Part shown: positions 30,315 to 54,708 of the stretch, piece by piece
Layout: each line of letters opens with the position of its first letter
Numbering within the stretch: the stretch's first letter is position 1
Virus record (IMG/VR): IMGVR_UViG_3300034684_000299
Span: 64,001 to 128,000 of that record
Strand: one strand, 5' to 3'
DNA from: a virus
Length of the DNA stretch: 64,000 bases
Made by a program: the position numbers and the translations under genes
Notes under the pieces: model-generated
What the model was told of the DNA's origin: nothing
The model's input: only the letters and a program-made list of their open reading frames with translations
Databases searched by the model: none

Positions 30315-30860
30315 ATGCAGATAGTATTTTTAAGCAATTTGAATTTTGATGAGACAATTACTTTTAGTGATCTATATTCAAAAATAGCTTTTATAGAGAC
30401 TCAAAATGATGACATTGAATCTCCTGATGTACCAATTATAAGGACCAACGATTTCGCTTTATTTAAAATTTCAGATACCGATGTAACCGAAGGTGAGGTT
30501 ATTTACAATCATACTTCTAAAAACTCTGATTTCTTCAGTGAAATGTGGAAGACTTTAATAACCAAGAAGAATATACCAGAATTTATGCGTGAAGTTATAA
30601 AGAATGTTATGGAGCATTATGACCCCAAAATTATCCCTGAAGAAATTATAATCAAAACTCAAACTTTTCCCGCAAATTTTATGAAAGTAAAATTAAATAT
30701 TCCAGAATCCTTATCATCGAATGATATACCCGCATTCTTCACAAGATATCTAGATAAAGATTATAAATTTGCTGCAATTAATAATGTATTCCTACTAAAT
30801 AATGCTTCTTTCGAACAACTAAAAATAGAAGATATTCCAGATTATATAAAGGAAGAATGA
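30315..30860 (+). CDS. Hypothetical protein
   Basis: 181-aa ORF with SD. Confidence 0.6.
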   Translation: MQIVFLSNLNFDETITFSDLYSKIAFIETQNDDIESPDVPIIRTNDFALFKISDTDVTEGEVIYNHTSKNSDFFSEMWKTLITKKNIPEFMREVIKNVMEHYDPKIIPEEIIIKTQTFPANFMKVKLNIPESLSSNDIPAFFTRYLDKDYKFAAINNVFLLNNASFEQLKIEDIPDYIKEE

Positions 30861-31627
30861 CTATGCCTCAAGATACAATTAAAATCCCTAATAGGTTTAT
30901 AAACGTTCGAGATGAAGTTCTCGAACGCTTTCCTTTTTTTATGAAGTTAATAAAAAAAACCATTGAATCTAATAAAAATGTTTTCGATGATAAGAAATTA
31001 ATATATCTTATATTGATGAACAATATTGTGTATAGAGGTCTTGATCCTAATACGTGTATAACTTTTCTATTTTCTAAAGATGAAACAACTAAAAAATTAA
31101 AGTATCAAACAAATGGACCTGAATATCATTTTTATCCATACTCTTATTTTTGGAAAGCTTCTATTCCTTATTTAGTAGAGCAAGAAGATGAAGATGATGT
31201 TTATTATTTTTTTGAAAGACTTAATGAAAGAACTAAACATCTATACAACCCTTTAAACAAAAAAATAAGAACTATTTTTCTAAAATCCAGATTAGTGAAA
31301 TTTATTGATGAATTGAGAGATATATATGGTAAAATAATTGAAGAAGAAATAATCGATCATTTGGATGATTTTATTCCCAAAATAGATTTTATAGATAGAA
31401 ATACGTTTTACAATGTTCCTAGCTTTGGAGGTTTTAGTGTTGATTATTTTCTGCAAATAGAAAGAAAAATAAAAAATATCATTGAAAATACCCACATTTT
31501 CGACATTTCAAATAAAAACAAACTAATAGAAAAACTCATAAAGATTTCTGCTAATACTCAATCCAAAATTTCTGATTCTTTAGTCGATATTCCTGAAAAG
31601 TATATAATAGATCTAGCAAAACTTTGA
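30857..31627 (+). CDS. Paralog family B member (about 255 aa)
   Basis: IKIPNRFI...RFPFFMKL N-terminus and YIIDLAKL C-terminus, matching four ORFs at 58-63 kb. Confidence 0.7.
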   Translation: MTMPQDTIKIPNRFINVRDEVLERFPFFMKLIKKTIESNKNVFDDKKLIYLILMNNIVYRGLDPNTCITFLFSKDETTKKLKYQTNGPEYHFYPYSYFWKASIPYLVEQEDEDDVYYFFERLNERTKHLYNPLNKKIRTIFLKSRLVKFIDELRDIYGKIIEEEIIDHLDDFIPKIDFIDRNTFYNVPSFGGFSVDYFLQIERKIKNIIENTHIFDISNKNKLIEKLIKISANTQSKISDSLVDIPEKYIIDLAKL

Positions 31628-31649
31628 TAAAACCCCCTGCTATTTTTAT

Positions 31650-31902
31650 GAAAATTCAGCGAGAACACTCTCCAATTTATTGGAGAGATGAAAGCTGAAA
31701 ATACAAGGCGAATTTAAGGCAAAAATCGTTGTTAATTACTTACGAATGTGATATAATTGTATTGCAGTTAGTTCCTGCTTAAAAGAACTCTACCCCAGGA
31801 ACTGGGGGATGTTAAGCCTTTGGAGACTGTGTAAGACGGGCATTCATTGTCGCAACGGTCGATGAATTAGGAAGCTTACCTCTTTAGAGGTAAGTAGTTC
31901 AC
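31650..31902 (+). mobile_element. Non-autonomous IS200/IS605-type element (PATE-like), copy 1
   Basis: 253 bp, two substitutions versus the copy at 52531-52783; subterminal hairpins with TTTA loops; 5' flank TTAT, 3' end TCAC. Confidence 0.85.
31729..31757 (+). promoter_or_regulatory. Internal sigma70 promoter of the PATE
   Basis: TTGTTA-17 nt-TATAAT with extended TG. Confidence 0.75.
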
Positions 31903-31918
31903 GTATTCTGGGGCAAAA
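31764..31918 (+). ncRNA. Stand-alone TnpB-type guide RNA (reRNA) with flank-derived guide
   Basis: 27-nt identity (GTTAAGCCTTTGGAGACTGTGTAAGAC) plus further blocks shared with the right end of the tnpB element at 44.6-44.76 kb; boundaries estimated. Confidence 0.7.
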
Positions 31919-31945
31919 CGAGCTCATCGCTTTGCCCTTTTTTTT
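31911..31945 (+). terminator. Intrinsic terminator
   Basis: GGGCAAA...TTTGCCC followed by T8. Confidence 0.7.
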
Positions 31946-34109
31946 ACTCATTTTTTGGAATTAGAACAAATGCTGTAAAAGGTAACCCAAAGTTATAAAC
32001 AGAAAATCCATTATTTTCAAATTGTCCAAAAGAATAACCTAAATGGTTCAATTGTTCTTGGTTATATTCAAAAGAATATTTATATATTGCATCGCTAAAT
32101 GATTTAGTTCTATAAGAACCAATAGCTTTAAAAATTTCATCTTCATTCATTGTACCTATTGTAAATGAAGGAGATATGTATCCTTTACCATCTATATTAT
32201 AATCTGAATTGGATACATTTAATCTATTAACAACCATCTGCGATTTTATCGGTTCCATTAAAAATTGTATGTACAAATCCTTTTGCCCTGTAACTTGTTG
32301 TATTTTCTGCAAAATAAACGACTCAGGTATTATATATATAGACACATTTAAAGCTGATTGTGCCATACACGCTTCTATTTGTTGTCTTAACGAAGCATTT
32401 ATAGAAAATTTTAAAGGAACATTGTAATCGTATACTGTCGTATTGTAACCTACACCATTAACAGTAATATGTGATAAGTTAGGTAAATACATTTGCCCTT
32501 TAGTTTCTGATTTATATAAGTCTAAATTAAATACTGGGTTAACTACTTTATTGTATGCAGTTTTTATATTGTATCTGAAAATACCTAATTTATATTTTAA
32601 ATCGTGGTCTTGAATACCTCTTGCACTATCAATGGAAAAATTTTTTGGCACGAAAATATCATTGGCTATAATTTTATTTATATATAAATTTTCATGCATA
32701 TGATATCTTGGAGATATGTCTTTTGGTTCATATGTTTCATTATAAACGTCAGTTAATTTTGCCGAATATCTATGCTTCATACCCATTTGTGAATAATCTG
32801 GATGTTCATGAGTATACTCTGATATAACACTTGGTTGCATGGAACCTTCGAGATACGTTTTAGATTTTTCAAAAACATTTTCCATTTCAAATAATGTTTC
32901 TATAGCGGTTACTGAATTTATTGTATCTTTCAATACAGGTAATACTGCTTTACCTTCTTTGACATCATAATATTCACTATTTACTACTATATAACCATTT
33001 ACAAGATCTTTTATCTCATATTCACCTAATAAACTGCTTACATTACTTTGAACTATATAATAAATTTCTTCATCAGAATTTATCCCTCTTACACAAATTC
33101 CTTCATCTACATATTCAAACTTTTCTCTATCACTAACCAATTCTAATGTCTTTTTCTGACCTCTATCATTGAATACTTCCATTATATTTTTTACAAAAGA
33201 TTTTGGTAAATCTATCAACCAAATATCTCTACCTAAATATTCTTTTTGTATTTTAAAACCAATAGAAGATCCAGGTAAAATATTTCCTATATCTTTAGTT
33301 AGCAATAGATTCCCATTGTCATAAGTTAAATCTATAATTTCAGCCATTAAATCAACATTGTTCAAATACAATCTATACAAAGCATAATCTCTTTCAACAA
33401 AATTACCTAATATTTTTTTTAATTTCATCACTTCAGCATATTTAGTACTGTACAAATAATTGTATTTAACTTCTTGCACATGCAATGTCCTATAATAATT
33501 CCTATTAAAGAAAAATAAATTTTTATCAATAAATCCTGTGTACTCTTCCCCATTAACTTTTAATACATATTTATTGTTTGGATAATCTTTTATATTATTT
33601 ATAACTTTGTATCCAATTCCTTTGTTAGCTTCTAAATCTTCCTTTTCAAATAATATCTTTTGTTCTTTCAAGTAGTAATCATGTTTATGTTCCTTGCTTT
33701 CAGGAACAAACTCAACATAATTTGAATTTGTTAAATAATTCCTATCTACAACAGTTAAAACTTTTTGATTAATATATTTTGAATGATCATGTTTTACAGG
33801 AAGAAAATCAGTAGAAAAAAATTGTCTCCCAGATCTGTTAAGTAAACCTTTTGTAGTATAAGGAACTATATTTTTTGGCAAAAACATAGTATGTTTATGA
33901 TCTTCTAGACTAAATTTTGTATTACCCATATTAACATTTGATGTTTTAGTAGTTTTTAAATTCTTATCCACTACAAGGGATATCAATTGCATTATAAGAC
34001 TATGTGCTTTTTTTATTATCCATAAAAATCTTCCTACTATGGCGACCACCCCTTCTCTAGCAAAATTATACCAAAGACAGAAAAAAAAAGAAGTGAAGAG
34101 CACTACCAC
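31944..34109 (-). CDS. Displaced His-x-His repeat fibre-like paralog
   Basis: Five H-x-H motifs; FVPKNFSIDSARG and NFGLPFT blocks shared with the 21-27 kb proteins; start uncertain. Confidence 0.6.
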   Translation of the reverse strand: MVVLFTSFFFCLWYNFAREGVVAIVGRFLWIIKKAHSLIMQLISLVVDKNLKTTKTSNVNMGNTKFSLEDHKHTMFLPKNIVPYTTKGLLNRSGRQFFSTDFLPVKHDHSKYINQKVLTVVDRNYLTNSNYVEFVPESKEHKHDYYLKEQKILFEKEDLEANKGIGYKVINNIKDYPNNKYVLKVNGEEYTGFIDKNLFFFNRNYYRTLHVQEVKYNYLYSTKYAEVMKLKKILGNFVERDYALYRLYLNNVDLMAEIIDLTYDNGNLLLTKDIGNILPGSSIGFKIQKEYLGRDIWLIDLPKSFVKNIMEVFNDRGQKKTLELVSDREKFEYVDEGICVRGINSDEEIYYIVQSNVSSLLGEYEIKDLVNGYIVVNSEYYDVKEGKAVLPVLKDTINSVTAIETLFEMENVFEKSKTYLEGSMQPSVISEYTHEHPDYSQMGMKHRYSAKLTDVYNETYEPKDISPRYHMHENLYINKIIANDIFVPKNFSIDSARGIQDHDLKYKLGIFRYNIKTAYNKVVNPVFNLDLYKSETKGQMYLPNLSHITVNGVGYNTTVYDYNVPLKFSINASLRQQIEACMAQSALNVSIYIIPESFILQKIQQVTGQKDLYIQFLMEPIKSQMVVNRLNVSNSDYNIDGKGYISPSFTIGTMNEDEIFKAIGSYRTKSFSDAIYKYSFEYNQEQLNHLGYSFGQFENNGFSVYNFGLPFTAFVLIPKNE

Positions 34110-38989: not shown

Positions 38990-39270
38990 TCAAACAAGGA
39001 GGTAAGTCAACTACCCCACCCTATAGAGGGTGGAGCTTGTGATTAACAAGCTCAGTTGATTAGCCTCAGCCAGGGGGTATTAACCCTATCGGGCTACGTT
39101 ATATGGGAATATATAGTCACCATAGGATGCTCCACAAGTCCTATGCTCTGAGGGCAGTGGTTAAACATATCTGAGGGTAGGAGAAGTGCTGCTGCCATAC
39201 AAAACCCCATATAACATTGGCGATGTGGACTTACCACTACTTTGTAGTGAGTTATTACTCTTTAAGGAGG
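38990..39270 (+). ncRNA. omegaRNA of IscB (5' guide from the flank)
   Basis: Structured non-coding leader of about 260 nt with CTACGTTA and TAACATTGGCGATG blocks typical of IscB leaders. Confidence 0.7.
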
Positions 39271-40634
39271 GTTAATGTGGTATTTGTAATATCTAAAGAA
39301 GGTAAACCTTTAATGCCTACTAAAAATCATGCTAAAGTTAGAATACTACTAAAACACAAGAAAGCTAAAGTTATTAGAAGAAAACCATTTACTATTCAGC
39401 TTCTATATGAAACCACTACCTATACACAGCCTATTATACTTGGAATAGATAGTGGCTACAGTTATATTGGTTTTTCTGCTATTACTGAAAAGGAAGAACT
39501 AATATGTGGCGAAGTTAAACTAAGAAATGATATATCTGAGCTTCTTAAAGAAAGACGGATGTATCGTAGAATTAGGCGCAATAGACTTAGATATAGGAAA
39601 CCTAGATTTGATAACAGAATTTCATCTAAGAAAGAAGGTTGGTTAGCGCCCTCTATTAAACACAAGTTAGATTCTCATGTTAGGTTTATTAATTATCTTA
39701 AAAAGATATTGCCTATAGCTAACATAGTTGTAGAAGTGGCAAATTTTGATACTCATAAACTTAAAAACCCAAACGTAGTTGGTAAAGGTTATCAACAAGG
39801 TGAACAACAAGATTTTTGGAATGTAAGAGAATACGTTCTGTATAGAGATAATTATACCTGCCAGCTATGTGGCAAGAAAAACACCATACTTGAGGTACAT
39901 CATATAGGCTATTGGAAACAAGATAGAACAGATAGACCAGGCAATCTAATAACATTATGCACCAAATGCCACAATCCTAATAATCATAAAGAGGGAGGTA
40001 AATTGTATGGAATGAAGCCTGTTCAAAAACCATTAAAAGACGCAACATTTATGTCTACTATAAGATGGAAATTGGTCAATGCGCTGATGTGTGACTACAC
40101 TTACGGTTATATTACAAAATCCAAAAGAGTAAGTCTTGGTTTGGAAAAGACACATTATAACGATGCATTTTGCATAGCAGGTGGAATTAATCAACAGAGA
40201 ATAGAGCCTATCTATTTTGAGCAAATTAGGAGAAACAATCGTTCACTCGAAAAGTTCTATGATGCAAAATATGTTGATATAAGAGATAAGTCTATTAAAC
40301 CAGGACAAGAGCTTTTCTGTGGTAGAAGGACACGGAACAAAAACTTAAATGAAGAAAATCTTCATAAGTATCGTGGAGCTAAAAAATCAAAAGGCAGAAG
40401 AAATATTCGTAAGCAAAGATACGCTTATCAGCCTAAAGATATCGTTATCTTTAAGGGCAAAAAATATTCAGTTCAAGGTGTACAGAACAAAGGTAAATAT
40501 ATTAAGCTAATGGAAATGTCTAAGCCAGTCAAAACAGATTTAGTTAAGCCCTATATGTTTAGGAAAGGATTTAGTATGTTTTATAACTGCAATTCATCCC
40601 CCACTTACAGAAGTGGGAGTCTTCTTGCAGGAAA
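39006..40634 (+). mobile_element. IscB-encoding IS200/605-superfamily element
   Basis: Starts GTCAACTACCCC with a hairpin; right-end hairpin CCCACTT-acag-AAGTGGG; right boundary approximate. Confidence 0.8.
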
Positions 40635-40638
40635 ATGA
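39277..40638 (+). CDS. iscB: IscB RNA-guided endonuclease (RuvC + HNH)
   Basis: PLMP motif, RuvC-I GIDSG, Arg-rich RRMYRRIRRNRLRYRKPRF helix, HNH CQLCG..EVHH..LCTKCH; GTG start after AAGGAGG. Confidence 0.9.
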   Translation: MVFVISKEGKPLMPTKNHAKVRILLKHKKAKVIRRKPFTIQLLYETTTYTQPIILGIDSGYSYIGFSAITEKEELICGEVKLRNDISELLKERRMYRRIRRNRLRYRKPRFDNRISSKKEGWLAPSIKHKLDSHVRFINYLKKILPIANIVVEVANFDTHKLKNPNVVGKGYQQGEQQDFWNVREYVLYRDNYTCQLCGKKNTILEVHHIGYWKQDRTDRPGNLITLCTKCHNPNNHKEGGKLYGMKPVQKPLKDATFMSTIRWKLVNALMCDYTYGYITKSKRVSLGLEKTHYNDAFCIAGGINQQRIEPIYFEQIRRNNRSLEKFYDAKYVDIRDKSIKPGQELFCGRRTRNKNLNEENLHKYRGAKKSKGRRNIRKQRYAYQPKDIVIFKGKKYSVQGVQNKGKYIKLMEMSKPVKTDLVKPYMFRKGFSMFYNCNSSPTYRSGSLLAGK

Positions 40639-42900: not shown

Positions 42901-43051
42901 TACAAAGATTTCGTGAAGAAAGCCCTTGCCTTTAGGCTTGGGATGAATTCACGTTTTATTTAATTTAAATTTAATATTTTATTAATTTTAATAATATAAT
43001 TATATATTATAATAATCATATTATAATTATTATATAATAGGAGTTGATATA

Positions 43052-43468
43052 GTGGAAATAATAGGTAAAGATGGAAATTATTTAACAAATAATACTACAG
43101 TTCATAAATGCATTTATCATATAATATGGACTACTAAATATCGAAGACCAGTATTAACTAATGAAATGCAAGAATATTTAAAAAATTTATTATTAAAATA
43201 TTCAAATGAAAATGAAAAATTTAATATTATTGAATTAGAAATTATGCCAGATCATGTTCATTGTTTAATACAAATAGATCCAGATTTTCCAATTTCATCT
43301 ACTTTAAATATTTTAAAAGGAAAAAGTTCTCATGATATGATTGAACATTTTCCTGAACTTAAAAAGAGACTTCCAACATTATGGACTAGATCTAAATTTA
43401 TTGCAAGTGTTGGGTCTGTATCATTAAAAACTGTTAAAGAATATCTTGAAAATCAGAAAAATAAGTGA
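43052..43468 (+). CDS. tnpA: Y1 HUH transposase
   Basis: YHIIWTTKYRR, DHVH HUH motif, C-terminal Y in EYLENQK. Confidence 0.9.
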   Translation: MEIIGKDGNYLTNNTTVHKCIYHIIWTTKYRRPVLTNEMQEYLKNLLLKYSNENEKFNIIELEIMPDHVHCLIQIDPDFPISSTLNILKGKSSHDMIEHFPELKKRLPTLWTRSKFIASVGSVSLKTVKEYLENQKNK

Positions 43469-43479
43469 GATGATTTATA

Positions 43480-44640
43480 ATGTTAAAAACTTATAAATTT
43501 AGATTATACCCAAACGAAGATCAAAAAGTTTTAATTGAAAAACATATTGGTGCTTATAGATTTATATATAATTTTTTCTTAGAATATTCTACTAAAGCTT
43601 ATAAAAACACCAAAACCTCTACCAATGTATATAATTGGATGAAAGAATTAACTAAATTAAAAAAGACTAAAAAATATTCTTGGTTAAATGAAATAAATAG
43701 TCAAAGCCTTCAAGATAGTTTGTTTAATTTGGATAGAGCTTATCAAAGATTTTATAAAAAACAAACTGGTTATCCTAAATTTAAAAAGAAAAATAAAGTT
43801 AAATGGTCTTTTAGTGTTCCCCAATATATTAAATTAGAATATTCTACTAATAATATTAAATTTGGATATTTGTTTATACCTAAATTTAAAAAAGATCCTA
43901 TTAAAGTTCGTATTCATAGAATATTACCAAATGAATATAAAATTAAAACTGCAACCATTGTTAAAACTAAAAGTAATAAATATTATGTTTCATTAGTTAT
44001 AGAATACCAACCGCAAGAAAAAAATATTTCTTTTGTAAAAGTAATACCAGATGGAATTGGTATTGATGTTGGTATAAAAGATACTATTGTTTTAAGTAAT
44101 GGTGAAAAATATAATTATCCTATTAATTCTAAAAAATATGATAAAAAACTTAAACATCTTCATAAATCATTATCACGAAAATATAAATCTGATCAACCAA
44201 GATCAAAAAATTTTGAAAAAGATCGTATAAAACTTGCTAAAACTTATGAAAAAATTAATAATATAAAAGAAAACTGGATTCATCAAATTACCAAGAAATT
44301 AGTTGCTGAGAACCAAGGTAGCTATTTTTTCTTGGAAGATTTGAATATCCGAGGTATGTTTAAAAATCATAAATTAGCAAAAGAAATACAATTTCAATCT
44401 TGGTATAAATTTAAAGAAGTATTAACATATAAATCCATTTGGAATGGCAAACAAGTTATCTCTATCAATAGATATGAACCAAGTACTAAAACATGTTCTA
44501 AATGTGGTTATATAAATAATAATTTAACTTTAGATGATAGAAGTTGGACATGTCCAAATTGTAATTCATATCATGATAGAGATATCAATGCAGCCATAAA
44601 TATTAAAAATTTTGGTATCAACCAGCTGGTAGCTGGATAA
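43480..44640 (+). CDS. tnpB: TnpB RNA-guided endonuclease
   Basis: N-terminal HTH, RuvC GIDVG / LEDL / DRDINAA all intact, CSKC..CPNC Zn finger. Confidence 0.92.
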   Translation: MLKTYKFRLYPNEDQKVLIEKHIGAYRFIYNFFLEYSTKAYKNTKTSTNVYNWMKELTKLKKTKKYSWLNEINSQSLQDSLFNLDRAYQRFYKKQTGYPKFKKKNKVKWSFSVPQYIKLEYSTNNIKFGYLFIPKFKKDPIKVRIHRILPNEYKIKTATIVKTKSNKYYVSLVIEYQPQEKNISFVKVIPDGIGIDVGIKDTIVLSNGEKYNYPINSKKYDKKLKHLHKSLSRKYKSDQPRSKNFEKDRIKLAKTYEKINNIKENWIHQITKKLVAENQGSYFFLEDLNIRGMFKNHKLAKEIQFQSWYKFKEVLTYKSIWNGKQVISINRYEPSTKTCSKCGYINNNLTLDDRSWTCPNCNSYHDRDINAAINIKNFGINQLVAG

Positions 44641-44776
44641 ACTACCCTACCGTAGGAACTACGGGAAGTTAAGCCTTTGGAGACTGTGTAAGACTTGCTA
44701 TCATAGAAGCAACGGTCTATGAATTAGGAAGCCAAGCCCTTTAGGGTTTGTGTAGTTCACCCTATCAATGAAAACA
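44620..44776 (+). ncRNA. reRNA of resident TnpB
   Basis: Right-end structured region plus about 16 nt of flank (CCTATCAATGAAAACA); boundaries estimated. Confidence 0.65.
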
Positions 44777-51648: not shown

Positions 51649-52158
51649 ATGGTTATGGTTCGTACTACGTTCAGAGAAAGTATCCCGTTGGAAAACGGGA
51701 AGTATCTTTCTCGAGAAAAATGGATGGGATTAGTTGTAGTGGCGTCAGAACCACTAAGAAGAACGGTTCCAAGATCTGGATTTGAAGGGATAGGGGTGCC
51801 AGACCCCCTAGAATCTATCTTAATAAGTGGAGAGGAAAAAGAGGTTGGAAAGAAATTATTTAAAGGAGATACTGTAGAAGTATTTCCCGGGGAATATAGG
51901 ATTTCTAAAAAAGGTAATCCTGTATTTGAGTTCAAAAAGGATGGGTCTCATAGGTTCGTAGCAGTCAATTGGATGGTAACTTATGGAACAAACGGGGAAT
52001 TAAATTACCCAGTTGATCCAAAAATAGTAATTCACAAAAGAAAAGAAAGATCTGGTAGTGGCAAAACAGGCACTACCTATTATGTTCTTAATACTCCGTT
52101 GACTGAGGACCTCATCAACGGGGTATTTAGTGAGGATGATTTCACATTAGAGGAATGA
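51649..52158 (+). CDS. Hypothetical protein
   Basis: 169-aa ORF with AAGGAGG SD. Confidence 0.7.
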   Translation: MVMVRTTFRESIPLENGKYLSREKWMGLVVVASEPLRRTVPRSGFEGIGVPDPLESILISGEEKEVGKKLFKGDTVEVFPGEYRISKKGNPVFEFKKDGSHRFVAVNWMVTYGTNGELNYPVDPKIVIHKRKERSGSGKTGTTYYVLNTPLTEDLINGVFSEDDFTLEE

Positions 52159-52181
52159 ACACGCTTCCTCTTTTTTTTACT
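52149..52181 (+). repeat. 33-bp direct repeat/terminator, copy 1
   Basis: AGAGGAATGAACACGCTTCCTCTTTTTTTTACT, identical to 52496-52528. Confidence 0.9.
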
Positions 52182-52218
52182 TTGACTTCCAAAGAGGAAG
52201 TCTAAAAAACCTTATAAA

Positions 52219-52495: not shown

Positions 52496-52528
52496 AGAGG
52501 AATGAACACGCTTCCTCTTTTTTTTACT
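52496..52528 (+). repeat. 33-bp direct repeat/terminator, copy 2
   Basis: Identical to 52149-52181. Confidence 0.9.
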
Positions 52529-52530
52529 AT

Positions 52531-52783
52531 GTGAACTACTTACCTCTAAAGAGGTAAGCTTCCTAATTCATCGACCGTTGCGACAATGAATGCCCGTCTT
52601 ACACAGTCTCCAAAGGCTTAACATCCCCCAGTTCCTGGGGTAGAGTTCTTTTAAGTAGGAACTAACTGCAATACAATTATATCACATTCGTAAGTAATTA
52701 ACAACGATTTTTGCCTTAAATTAGCCTTGTATTTTCAGCTTTCATCTCTCCAATAAATTGGAGAGTGTTCTCGCTGAATTTTC
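52531..52783 (-). mobile_element. Non-autonomous IS200/IS605-type element (PATE-like), copy 2
   Basis: Reverse complement of 31650-31902 with two substitutions; TTAT 5' flank, TCAC end. Confidence 0.85.
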
Positions 52784-52807
52784 ATAATATTAAAAAAATC
52801 TTTAAAA

Positions 52808-53813: not shown

Positions 53814-53870
53814 GGAACGTGCGTACAGGCAGGCGTACGTTCCATCTTTTTTTTATTTTTTTTATTTTTT
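53814..53870 (+). terminator. Intrinsic terminator
   Basis: GGAACGTGCG/CGTACGTTCC stem followed by long T runs. Confidence 0.7.
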
Positions 53871-53875
53871 ATTTT

Positions 53876-53948
53876 GGGGACGAATGGGATTGACAAGGAT
53901 ACTGGTGCACATCCTTGGATGCGGGTTCGATTCCCGCCGTCTCCACCA
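53876..53948 (+). ncRNA. Mini-tmRNA: tRNA-like domain only
   Basis: Acceptor GGGGACG/CGTCTCC with G3:U70, A discriminator, encoded CCA, stemless D-loop ending GAC, T arm GCGGG-TTCGATT-CCCGC; helix 2 closed by a 10-nt loop. Confidence 0.8.
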
Positions 53949-54633: not shown

Positions 54634-54708
54634 TCTGGGTTAGCTCAAAGGAAGAGCAAGTGGCTGTTAACCACTTTGTTGGGGGTTCGAATCCCTCACC
54701 CAGAGCCA
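54634..54708 (+). tRNA. tRNA-Asn (GTT)
   Basis: Acceptor TCTGGGT/ACCCAGA, anticodon arm AGTGG-CTGTTAA-CCACT, TTCGAAT loop, G discriminator, encoded CCA. Confidence 0.93.

What the first reader, a model, noticed from the sequence alone, without database searches (positions are those of the whole stretch)
31650..31945. Protein-free mobile element that encodes only a promoter and a TnpB guide RNA (copy 1)
Seen: a 253-bp element with IS200/605 hairpin ends, an internal TTGTTA-17-TGnTATAAT promoter, and about 140 nt homologous to the reRNA region of the tnpB element at 44.6 kb. It ends at TCAC so that the flank (GTATTCTGGGGCAAAA) becomes the guide, and a terminator follows at once. Established: TnpB reRNA takes its guide from the right flank and cuts the empty donor site. 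Inference: a minimal parasite that borrows TnpA and TnpB in trans, giving one nuclease several guides and letting the element home against co-infecting phages lacking the insertion.
Basis: partly seen in the sequence, partly recalled or inferred. Interest (0 to 1): 0.76.

Follow-up and report, generated by a model that had tools for sequence, protein, structure and literature searches.

The report
Gene-less TnpB guide-RNA mini-transposon in phage
A 253-base protein-free miniature of an IS200/IS605 jumping gene sits between two genes of a 185-kb oil-field phage; it keeps only its two ends, the parent element's promoter and a complete TnpB guide-RNA scaffold. Sister phages still carry the exact empty site, so it is real and recently mobile, but this kind of element is already described.

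Summary
Observation confirmed. Window 31650-31902 (+) is a 253-bp protein-free IS200/IS605 derivative. It lies directly 3' of TTAT and ends in ...GTAGTTCAC. A second copy at 52531-52783 (-) is 99% identical.

It holds a left-end hairpin, a TTGTTA-17-TGaTATAAT promoter and a 139-nt TnpB omegaRNA scaffold. The scaffold has 34 pairs, 11 of them with compensatory changes in 16 relatives.

Their left flank is 99.9% identical to the window. Six other contigs carry an empty site with TTGT in place of the TAM.

Three corrections:
- The closest nuclease partner is not the tnpB at 44.6 kb (omegaRNA 81% identical). It is a tnpB-only element outside the window (G000 151571-153003, omegaRNA 97%).
- The promoter is the parental tnpB promoter. 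One deletion of about 1.2 kb fused it to the first scaffold helix.
- The terminator was there before the insertion and belongs to the phage.

Transcription and TnpB loading are not shown. Stand-alone, trans-acting omegaRNAs and PATE-like elements are published (Altae-Tran 2021 as cited in PMC10691335; Meers 2023). This scan has found the same kind in at least 36 other genomes. Verdict: a well-documented new member of a known kind.

The parts
31646..31649 (+). TTAT target and cleavage site (C_L), which is also the predicted TnpB TAM. It is not part of the element.
   Evidence: Both mini copies, the tnpB-only relative, the HEARO-only mini, L082 and L088 all follow TTAT. The empty alleles L109 and L110 keep TTAT joined to the right flank.
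31650..31902 (+). Mini-element copy 1, 253 bp, protein-free
   Evidence: Its boundaries are fixed by the copy 1 versus copy 2 alignment and by the empty-site alleles.
31650..31707 (+). Left end. An 18-nt leader ends in the DNA guide G_L AACA (31664-31667); the hairpin CTCTCCAA-TTTA-TTGGAGAG lies at 31668-31687.
   Evidence: Read from the sequence. It is 94-96% identical to the left ends at G000 151573 and 131677. The geometry matches IS608, where C_L lies 19 nt 5' of the hairpin foot and G_L is the 4 nt 5' of the foot (PMC3201880).
31729..31757 (+). Sigma-70-type promoter TTGTTA-17-TG-A-TATAAT, with predicted +1 near G31764
   Evidence: It is colinear with the left-end-proximal promoter of the tnpB-bearing element L082 (TTGTTA-17-TGGTACAAT) up to 5 nt past the -10 box.
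31764..31902 (+). TnpB omegaRNA (reRNA) scaffold. It includes the right-end hairpin (31875-31894), G_R GAAG (31871-31874) and C_R TCAC (31899-31902).
   Evidence: Alignment A3: 34 pairs, 96.3% of cells paired against 31-41% in slid controls, 11 pairs with compensatory changes. Covariance model R1 scores it at 173 bits.
31903..31922 (+). Predicted guide, taken from the right flank: GTATTCTGGGGCAAAACGAG
   Evidence: This is its position relative to the right end. The same 20 nt follow TTAT in the empty alleles L109 and L110.
31911..31945 (+). Pre-existing phage intrinsic terminator (GGGCAAA...TTTGCCC plus T8). It overlaps guide positions 9 onward.
   Evidence: It appears in the RNA fold and is present, unchanged, in all empty alleles.
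52531..52783 (-). Mini-element copy 2, 253 bp and 99% identical to copy 1. It follows TTAT (plus-strand ATAA, 52784-52787). Its guide is ATAGTAAAAAAAAGAGGAAG (reverse complement of 52511-52530), which runs into a bidirectional terminator.
42904..44760 (+). Full IS200/IS605 element after TTAC, with tnpA (43052-43468, the only Y1 transposase in the genome), tnpB-1 (43480-44640) and an omegaRNA/right end at 44609-44760

Best explanation
Window 31650-31902 is a non-autonomous, protein-free IS200/IS605 element: a PATE-like, stand-alone omegaRNA cassette.

Shown:
- It arose from a tnpB-only (IS1341-type) element by one internal deletion of about 1.2 kb. The deletion removed the 5'UTR and nearly all of tnpB.
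- As a result the parental tnpB promoter now sits 7 nt upstream of the first helix of the omegaRNA scaffold.
- It inserted by the IS200/IS605 single-strand route, 3' of TTAT and without target duplication, between the stop codon of a phage gene and that gene's terminator.
- It is polymorphic among closely related phages.

Inferred:
- It is moved in trans by a Y1 TnpA, either the single phage copy at 43052-43468 or a host copy. Target choice (TTAT against TTAC) would be set in cis by the 4-nt DNA guide at the foot of the left-end hairpin.
- Its promoter makes an RNA of about 180 nt: scaffold, then flank-derived guide, ending at the phage terminator.
- That RNA is loaded in trans by the intact TnpB encoded at G000 151721-152884, whose own omegaRNA is 97% identical.
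- The complex cuts any TTAT+GTATTCTG... empty allele, whether made by excision or brought in by a co-infecting phage. Recombinational repair from an occupied genome then restores or spreads the element.
For: Identity and boundaries:
- Two copies are 99% identical at unrelated sites and share exact ends.
- Exact empty alleles exist in L109 (NCBI assembly GCA_029972165.1) and L110. Their left flank is 99.9% identical to the occupied window. Occupied alleles are found in L100, L101 and L102.
- No ORF of 20 aa or more lies wholly inside the element.

Origin:
- The left end plus promoter segment is colinear with the tnpB-bearing element L082 up to 5 nt past the -10 box. L082 then continues into the RBS and tnpB, while the mini jumps to TGCAG at the start of the scaffold.
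- A tnpB-only element in the same genome has a left end 94% identical and an omegaRNA 97% identical.

RNA:
- The scaffold structure is supported by covariation: 11 of 34 pairs have compensatory changes, 96.3% of cells are paired against 31-41% in slid controls, and the covariation score is 0.292 against 0.108 in shuffles.
- Copy 1 keeps every pair.
- The scaffold retained (139 nt) is far longer than the 32 nt from G_R to C_R (31871-31902) that TnpA needs at a right end.
- Independent mini lineages (L088, L078/L093 and the Simkaniaceae family L113-L117) also keep the whole scaffold.

Promoter: it is near-consensus with an extended -10, and such sites are rare in this genome (9 in 371 kb).

Nuclease: TnpB-2 aligns over its full length to ISDra2 TnpB (E 6e-64), with the D, E, D motifs and the zinc finger present.

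Transposase logic: G_L/C_L are AAAG/TTAC in the full IS and AACA/TTAT in the mini, 18-19 nt apart. G_R/C_R are GAAG/TCAC in both. This fits the IS608 rule (PMC3201880).

Precedent: stand-alone omegaRNAs work in trans with compatible effectors (PMC10691335), and PATEs often encode omegaRNAs (PMC10055086).
Against: - There is no direct evidence of a transcript, of its 5' end, or of loading into TnpB.
- The guide's positions 9 onward form the 5' arm of the terminator hairpin in both copies. That could hinder guide use.
- Copy 2 has a G-to-A change that breaks one pair of helix 1.
- The resident TnpA belongs to an element with different hairpin stems and a different target (TTAC), so cross-mobilisation is unproven. 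A host transposase may be responsible instead.
- The empty TTAT alleles could be never-occupied sites or products of precise excision. Neither proves homing.
- At least one mini lineage (L078/L093) keeps the scaffold but no promoter, so a promoter is not a universal feature.
Confidence: 0.72

Rival explanations
1. Neutral decaying relic. The element is a PATE that TnpA can still move, but its omegaRNA is not used by any TnpB. Scaffold and promoter survive only because the deletion is recent.
For: The two copies differ at only 2 positions, so the element is young and selection has had little time to act. Copy 2 already carries a helix-breaking change. The guide is partly locked in a terminator hairpin. 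There is no expression evidence.
Against: Four separate mini lineages keep the entire scaffold, although TnpA needs only the right-end hairpin region. The -10 box is closer to consensus (TATAAT) than in the tnpB-bearing relatives (TACAAT, TACATT). The deletion endpoint puts the predicted +1 on the first base of helix 1. An intact, closely matched TnpB is present in the same genome.
Confidence: 0.18
2. Phage-level weapon. The cassettes are kept by selection on the phage because TnpB programmed with them destroys or converts co-infecting relatives that carry the empty TTAT allele. The TTGT alleles are escape variants.
For: Natural empty alleles with an intact TAM and an identical protospacer exist in near-identical phages. 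Between the two empty alleles, differences are clustered in the few bases just 5' of the joint, where the TAM lies: ACCTTGT against TTTTAT. Occupied alleles occur in backgrounds 4.3% apart. TnpB-driven spread to empty replicons without TnpA has been argued for plasmids (PMC13565253).
Against: This is inference only. The same pattern is expected from ordinary selfish homing or from old polymorphism plus recombination. There are no co-infection data. The TAM requirement of this TnpB is unknown.
Confidence: 0.08
3. Not a mobile element at all: a chance repeat, or a segment duplicated along with its neighbourhood.
For: None found.
Against: The two copies have unrelated flanks and share sharp ends. 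Exact empty sites exist. The ends are typical of IS200/IS605.
Confidence: 0.01

Closest known systems
PATE-like minimal IS200/IS605 elements of Geobacillus stearothermophilus (Meers et al. 2023; preprint PMC10055086)
   Same: They have no protein-coding gene and keep the left and right ends of a resident TnpB/IscB element family. They often encode an omegaRNA that must be used in trans by a TnpB encoded elsewhere, and they are mobilised in trans by one TnpA.
   Different: This one lives in a phage genome. Its origin can be traced to a single deletion that fuses the parental tnpB promoter to the scaffold. Natural empty alleles, with and without the TAM, are documented.
Stand-alone omegaRNAs of OMEGA systems (Altae-Tran et al. 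2021, as summarised in PMC10691335)
   Same: They are mobilised omegaRNA loci without an effector or transposase, in genomes that also hold effector-containing loci. They were reported to work in trans with compatible effectors and so give extra target sites.
   Different: Function was tested there and not here.
IS1341-type tnpB-only elements, such as the resident one at G000 151571-153003 and L082
   Same: Same left end, same TTAT target, same promoter position, same omegaRNA and right end.
   Different: The mini lacks the 5'UTR and the whole tnpB ORF except its last 8 codons and stop, which belong to the scaffold.
Free-standing homing endonucleases of T-even phages (intronless homing, marker exclusion; reviewed in PMC13565253)
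   Same: The predicted outcome is the same: a co-infecting genome lacking the insertion is cut and converted.
   Different: Recognition here would be RNA-guided and supplied by a separate gene-less cassette. This is an analogy in how it may work, not membership of that family.

Membership tests
IS200/IS605 non-autonomous element (PATE) | Subterminal hairpins at both ends and no terminal inverted repeats | tested here: met
   The left-end hairpin is at 31668-31687 and the right-end hairpin at 31875-31894. The ends GAAAATTC... and ...GTAGTTCAC are not inverted repeats.
IS200/IS605 non-autonomous element (PATE) | Insertion 3' of a fixed tetranucleotide without target-site duplication | tested here: met
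   All copies follow TTAT. The empty alleles L109 and L110 read TTAT|GTATTCTG with nothing duplicated or lost.
IS200/IS605 non-autonomous element (PATE) | No protein-coding capacity | tested here: met
   No ORF of 20 aa or more lies wholly inside the 253 bp. Three ORFs of 24-36 aa only straddle the borders.
IS200/IS605 non-autonomous element (PATE) | DNA guide (4 nt 5' of the hairpin foot) matched to the cleavage site, as in IS608 | tested here: met
   AACA pairs with TTAT in the mini and AAAG with TTAC in the full IS, at 18-19 nt spacing. GAAG pairs with TCAC at both right ends. The IS608 rule was read in PMC3201880. The pairing is inferred by analogy.
IS200/IS605 non-autonomous element (PATE) | Mobilised in trans by a Y1 TnpA | not testable with these tools
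   One Y1 TnpA is in the genome. Insertion polymorphism shows recent movement. Which transposase acted is unknown.
TnpB omegaRNA (reRNA) | Scaffold homologous to the 3' end and right end of a tnpB element, ending at the right-end boundary with the guide in the flank | tested here: met
   It is 97% identical to the resident tnpB-only element and 81% to the full IS. It ends at TCAC.
TnpB omegaRNA (reRNA) | Conserved secondary structure with covariation | tested here: met
   34 pairs, 11 with compensatory changes. Helices 1, 2 and 4 lie outside the DNA hairpin that TnpA uses.
TnpB omegaRNA (reRNA) | Transcribed and bound by a TnpB, directing TAM-dependent cleavage | not testable with these tools
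   No run with both RNA and the occupied allele was available. An intact TnpB is present in the genome.
Rfam-curated RNA family | Match at the gathering score | tested here: not met
   No family reaches its gathering score on the element. The best sub-threshold match is RAGATH-18, 21 bits against a cut-off of 44.9. I did not check whether Rfam holds a model for this omegaRNA lineage.

The most novel reading that the evidence does not exclude
The gene-less cassettes act as extra spacers for a phage-borne TnpB in conflicts between co-infecting phages. Each cassette marks its own locus, TnpB cuts rivals that carry the empty TTAT allele, and the TTGT allele seen in six contigs is a natural TAM-escape variant. 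That would be an RNA-guided gene-drive arms race among phages.
Probability: 0.15. Interest if true: 0.65.

Novelty: new member of a known kind. Interest (0 to 1): 0.36.

Why it matters
The case shows in one step how a stand-alone guide-RNA gene can arise from a transposon: a single deletion joins the tnpB promoter to the omegaRNA scaffold. It also supplies all three natural alleles of one locus (occupied, empty with TAM, empty with altered TAM) in closely related environmental phages. These are ready-made substrates for testing TnpB-driven homing between phage genomes. It adds nothing new in kind: trans-acting stand-alone omegaRNAs and PATEs are published, and this scan has met the same architecture in many other genomes.

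Tried and rejected
- **Close relatives in phage and IMG/VR collections:** none found. The tries were BLAST of the element, exact core patterns (the two hits are chance matches inside coding genes), the flanking protein and the predicted copy-2 empty joint. TnpB-2 relatives in IMG/VR are at most 49% identical.
- **Rfam:** no family at gathering score. Sub-threshold hits are noise.
- **Expression:** the two RNA libraries that share words with the stretch (X11, X13; oligo-dT, contigs only) carry the phage with the empty TTGT allele at this site. They therefore cannot show whether the cassette is transcribed. Their cover over the left end and scaffold comes from other family members.
- **Circle or excision joint:** none seen in the DNA run X1.
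- **Empty site of copy 2:** not found.
- **Host identification through the omegaRNA core in species genomes:** the scan returned only a Simkaniaceae MAG with a different mini family.
- **De novo promoter:** I considered that the promoter had been created by deletion junctions, based on an alignment with L088. I rejected this once L082 showed the whole segment to be the parental tnpB promoter region.

Full report
**1. What is there**

The window is bases 64001-128000 of a 185,437-bp IMG/VR virus record, 31% G+C and estimated 91% complete. Between the stop codon of a 256-aa ORF (30857-31627, +) and the end of a converging 721-aa ORF (31944-34109, -) lies a 253-bp segment, 31650-31902. A second copy sits at 52531-52783 on the minus strand. 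The two differ at two positions, and similarity stops sharply at both ends. Both copies start directly 3' of TTAT and end in ...GTAGTTCAC. No ORF of 20 aa or more lies wholly inside.

**2. Anatomy**

- Left end: an 18-nt leader, then the perfect hairpin CTCTCCAA-TTTA-TTGGAGAG (31668-31687).
- Middle: TTGTTA, 17 nt, TG-A-TATAAT (31729-31757).
- Right part: 139 nt that align with the 3' end and right end of tnpB elements, closing with the hairpin CTTACCTC-TTTA-GAGGTAAG and TAGTTCAC.

Promoters of this quality (TGnTATAAT with at least 4 of 6 in the -35 box) occur only 9 times in both strands of the genome. Two of those are the two mini copies, and Markov-1 random genomes give 3.5.

**3. It is an omegaRNA scaffold**

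One metagenome scan with a 24-nt core of the scaffold returned 22 contigs. I aligned 16 non-redundant right ends, both tnpB-linked and gene-less. The consensus fold has 34 pairs and 11 of them carry compensatory changes. Of all cells, 96.3% are paired, against 31-41% when partners are slid by 1-3 columns. The covariation score is 0.292 against 0.108 in shuffles. Helices 1, 2 and 4 lie outside the DNA hairpin that TnpA would use, so they point to selection at the RNA level. A covariance model built from this alignment finds exactly four scaffolds in the phage: the two minis, the full IS at 44.6 kb and a tnpB-only element. Helix 1 starts at G31764, seven bases after the -10 hexamer, which is the predicted +1.

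**4. Where it came from**

The genome has one Y1 transposase gene (window 43052-43468), two tnpB genes and six HEARO (IscB-type) RNAs. The tnpB at 43480-44640 belongs to a full IS inserted after TTAC. Its omegaRNA is 81% identical to the mini.

Outside the window, G000 151571-153003 is a tnpB-only element after TTAT. Its left end is 94% and its omegaRNA 97% identical to the mini. Its TnpB aligns over its full length with ISDra2 TnpB (E 6e-64) and keeps the RuvC D, E, D motifs and the zinc finger. It is 53% identical to the other TnpB.

The 64-nt promoter segment has no other copy in the phage. It is, however, colinear with the left-end-proximal region of a tnpB-bearing metagenomic element, L082 (Ga0209409_1000797). 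L082 has the same -35 box TTGTTA, a 17-nt spacer and TGGTACAAT, and then the shared TGTAT. After that, L082 runs into its RBS and tnpB, while the mini jumps to TGCAGTTAG, the start of the scaffold. So the mini is a single-deletion derivative, and its promoter is the parental tnpB promoter. A related mini, L088, has the same left end and the same scaffold boundary but keeps a tnpB fragment.

**5. Mobility: the empty site**

The 256-aa flanking protein has a 9-member cluster. Contigs encoding its members show three alleles.

| Allele | Contigs | Sequence at the site |
|---|---|---|
| Occupied | L100, L101, L102 (each assembly breaks 25 nt into the left end) | element present after TTAT |
| Empty, TAM intact | L109 (NCBI GCA_029972165.1), L110 | ...CTGCTATTTTTAT\|GTATTCTGGGGCAAAACGAGC... 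|
| Empty, TAM altered | L103-L106, L108 (L107 ends inside the patch, before the joint) | ...GCTATACCTTGT\|GTATTCTGG... |

In the third, TTGT replaces TTAT.

The terminator hairpin and T-run are present in all empty alleles. They therefore belong to the phage, not to the element.

Over 1.5 kb of left flank, the empty-TTAT alleles are 99.9% identical to the occupied window. Another occupied pair (L100, L101) is only 95.7% identical. Gain or precise loss is therefore very recent. Occupancy also spans diverged backgrounds, as expected for an active element, for homing, or for recombination. These cannot be told apart here.

**6. Transposase logic**

In IS608 the cleavage site is read by a 4-nt DNA guide just 5' of the hairpin foot, and C_L lies 19 nt 5' of the foot (PMC3201880).

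| Element | G_L | C_L (target) | Spacing | G_R | C_R |
|---|---|---|---|---|---|
| Full IS | AAAG | TTAC | 19 nt | GAAG | TCAC |
| Mini family | AACA | TTAT | 18 nt | GAAG | TCAC |

The full IS values at the left end are the same as in IS608. The change at the fourth position fits the rule. It means target choice is encoded in cis, so a single TnpA could serve both families. That remains an inference.

**7. Likely mechanism**

The steps below are inferred unless marked otherwise.

1. The retained promoter fires at about 31764. For copy 1, read-through from the upstream gene is a second route, because no terminator lies between that gene and the element.
2. The transcript carries the scaffold and then the flank as guide, and it stops at the phage terminator.
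3. TnpB-2, or less likely TnpB-1, binds it in trans.
4. The complex cuts TTAT+guide sites. These are the donor joint after excision, or an empty allele on a co-infecting genome.
5. Recombination with an occupied copy restores or spreads the element.

Precedent is published. Stand-alone omegaRNAs function in trans (PMC10691335). PATEs of G. stearothermophilus often encode omegaRNAs that need a TnpB from another element (PMC10055086). Non-restorative homing between replicons has also been discussed (PMC13565253).

Three weak points remain. There are no RNA data. The guide from position 9 onward is the 5' arm of the terminator hairpin in both copies. Copy 2 has one broken pair in helix 1.

**8. 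Expression test**

The best DNA run (X1) holds the element at twice the depth of its flanks, consistent with two copies, and shows no empty joint. The only RNA libraries sharing words with the stretch hold the TTGT empty allele at this site, so they say nothing about transcription of the cassette.

**9. Novelty**

The kind is known from the papers above. This scan has reported the same architecture in at least 36 other genomes, several of them phages. Three things are specific here:
- the traceable one-step origin, a fusion of the tnpB promoter to the scaffold;
- the three natural alleles at one locus, including one with altered TAM bases;
- a phage that also carries an IscB-type gene-less element using the same left end.

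I rate it a new member of a known kind, of moderate-to-low interest.

Noticed in passing
G000 131324-131680 (3.3 kb beyond the window's end; locus L010): A protein-free IscB-type element of 357 bp. A full HEARO omegaRNA (153 bits) is bounded on the other side by a left end 96% identical to that of the TnpB-type mini, after TTAT. The 5' end of the HEARO RNA is the reverse complement of a right end that finishes in ...GGGGGTAGTTGAC. So TnpB-type and IscB-type cassettes share one left end in this phage.
   Followed up: partly
window 39006-40638: A HEARO RNA (Rfam RF02033, 146 bits) followed by an iscB-like ORF (39217-40638 as listed; GTG at 39277, N-terminus VVFVISKEGKPLMP...). The genome holds six HEARO RNAs in all (G000 441, 11969, 20240, 103006, 131324, 151340).
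   Followed up: partly
G000 151340-151571 (outside the window; locus L007): A stand-alone HEARO RNA ends 21 nt before the TTAT and left end of the tnpB-only element. The insertion falls at what looks like the RBS and ATG of a lost iscB, so one OMEGA element may have landed in another.
   Followed up: no
L103-L106 and L108 against L109/L110, at the position of window 31640-31649: The two kinds of empty allele are identical over most of the intergenic region. They differ in a patch just 5' of the joint, where the TAM lies (ACCTTGT against TTTTAT). This could be TAM escape or a repair scar.
   Followed up: partly
L113-L117 (Simkaniaceae MAG JBBDIZ01); also L084, L090 and L097: At least five copies of a different gene-less omegaRNA element, after TTAT and ending in ...GGATGTCAA. 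A TGnTAAACT box lies between the left end and the scaffold. L086, L091 and L099 carry the same scaffold without a left-end hairpin, next to a divergent ORF.
   Followed up: partly
L078 1650-1910 and L093 7080-7336: Gene-less derivatives of the other family (TTAC target). The left-end hairpin is joined through an AATTCA microhomology to the 3' end of tnpB and the omegaRNA, so this mini keeps the scaffold but no promoter region. L093 lies just downstream of a tRNA-like sequence.
   Followed up: no
window 52149-52184, 52496-52531, 53825-53860; also 27527, 38001, 41616, 51150, 52204, 52793, 56790, 60474: A terminator module (AGAGGAATGAACACGCTTCCTC plus a T-run) occurs three times. A promoter-like box, TTTTTTGGTATATATAAT, recurs before many small genes. 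Copy 2 sits exactly between one such terminator and one such promoter.
   Followed up: no
window 53876-53948 and 54634-54705: A 73-nt tmRNA-like tRNA-like domain without a message part, and a tRNA gene (Rfam).
   Followed up: no
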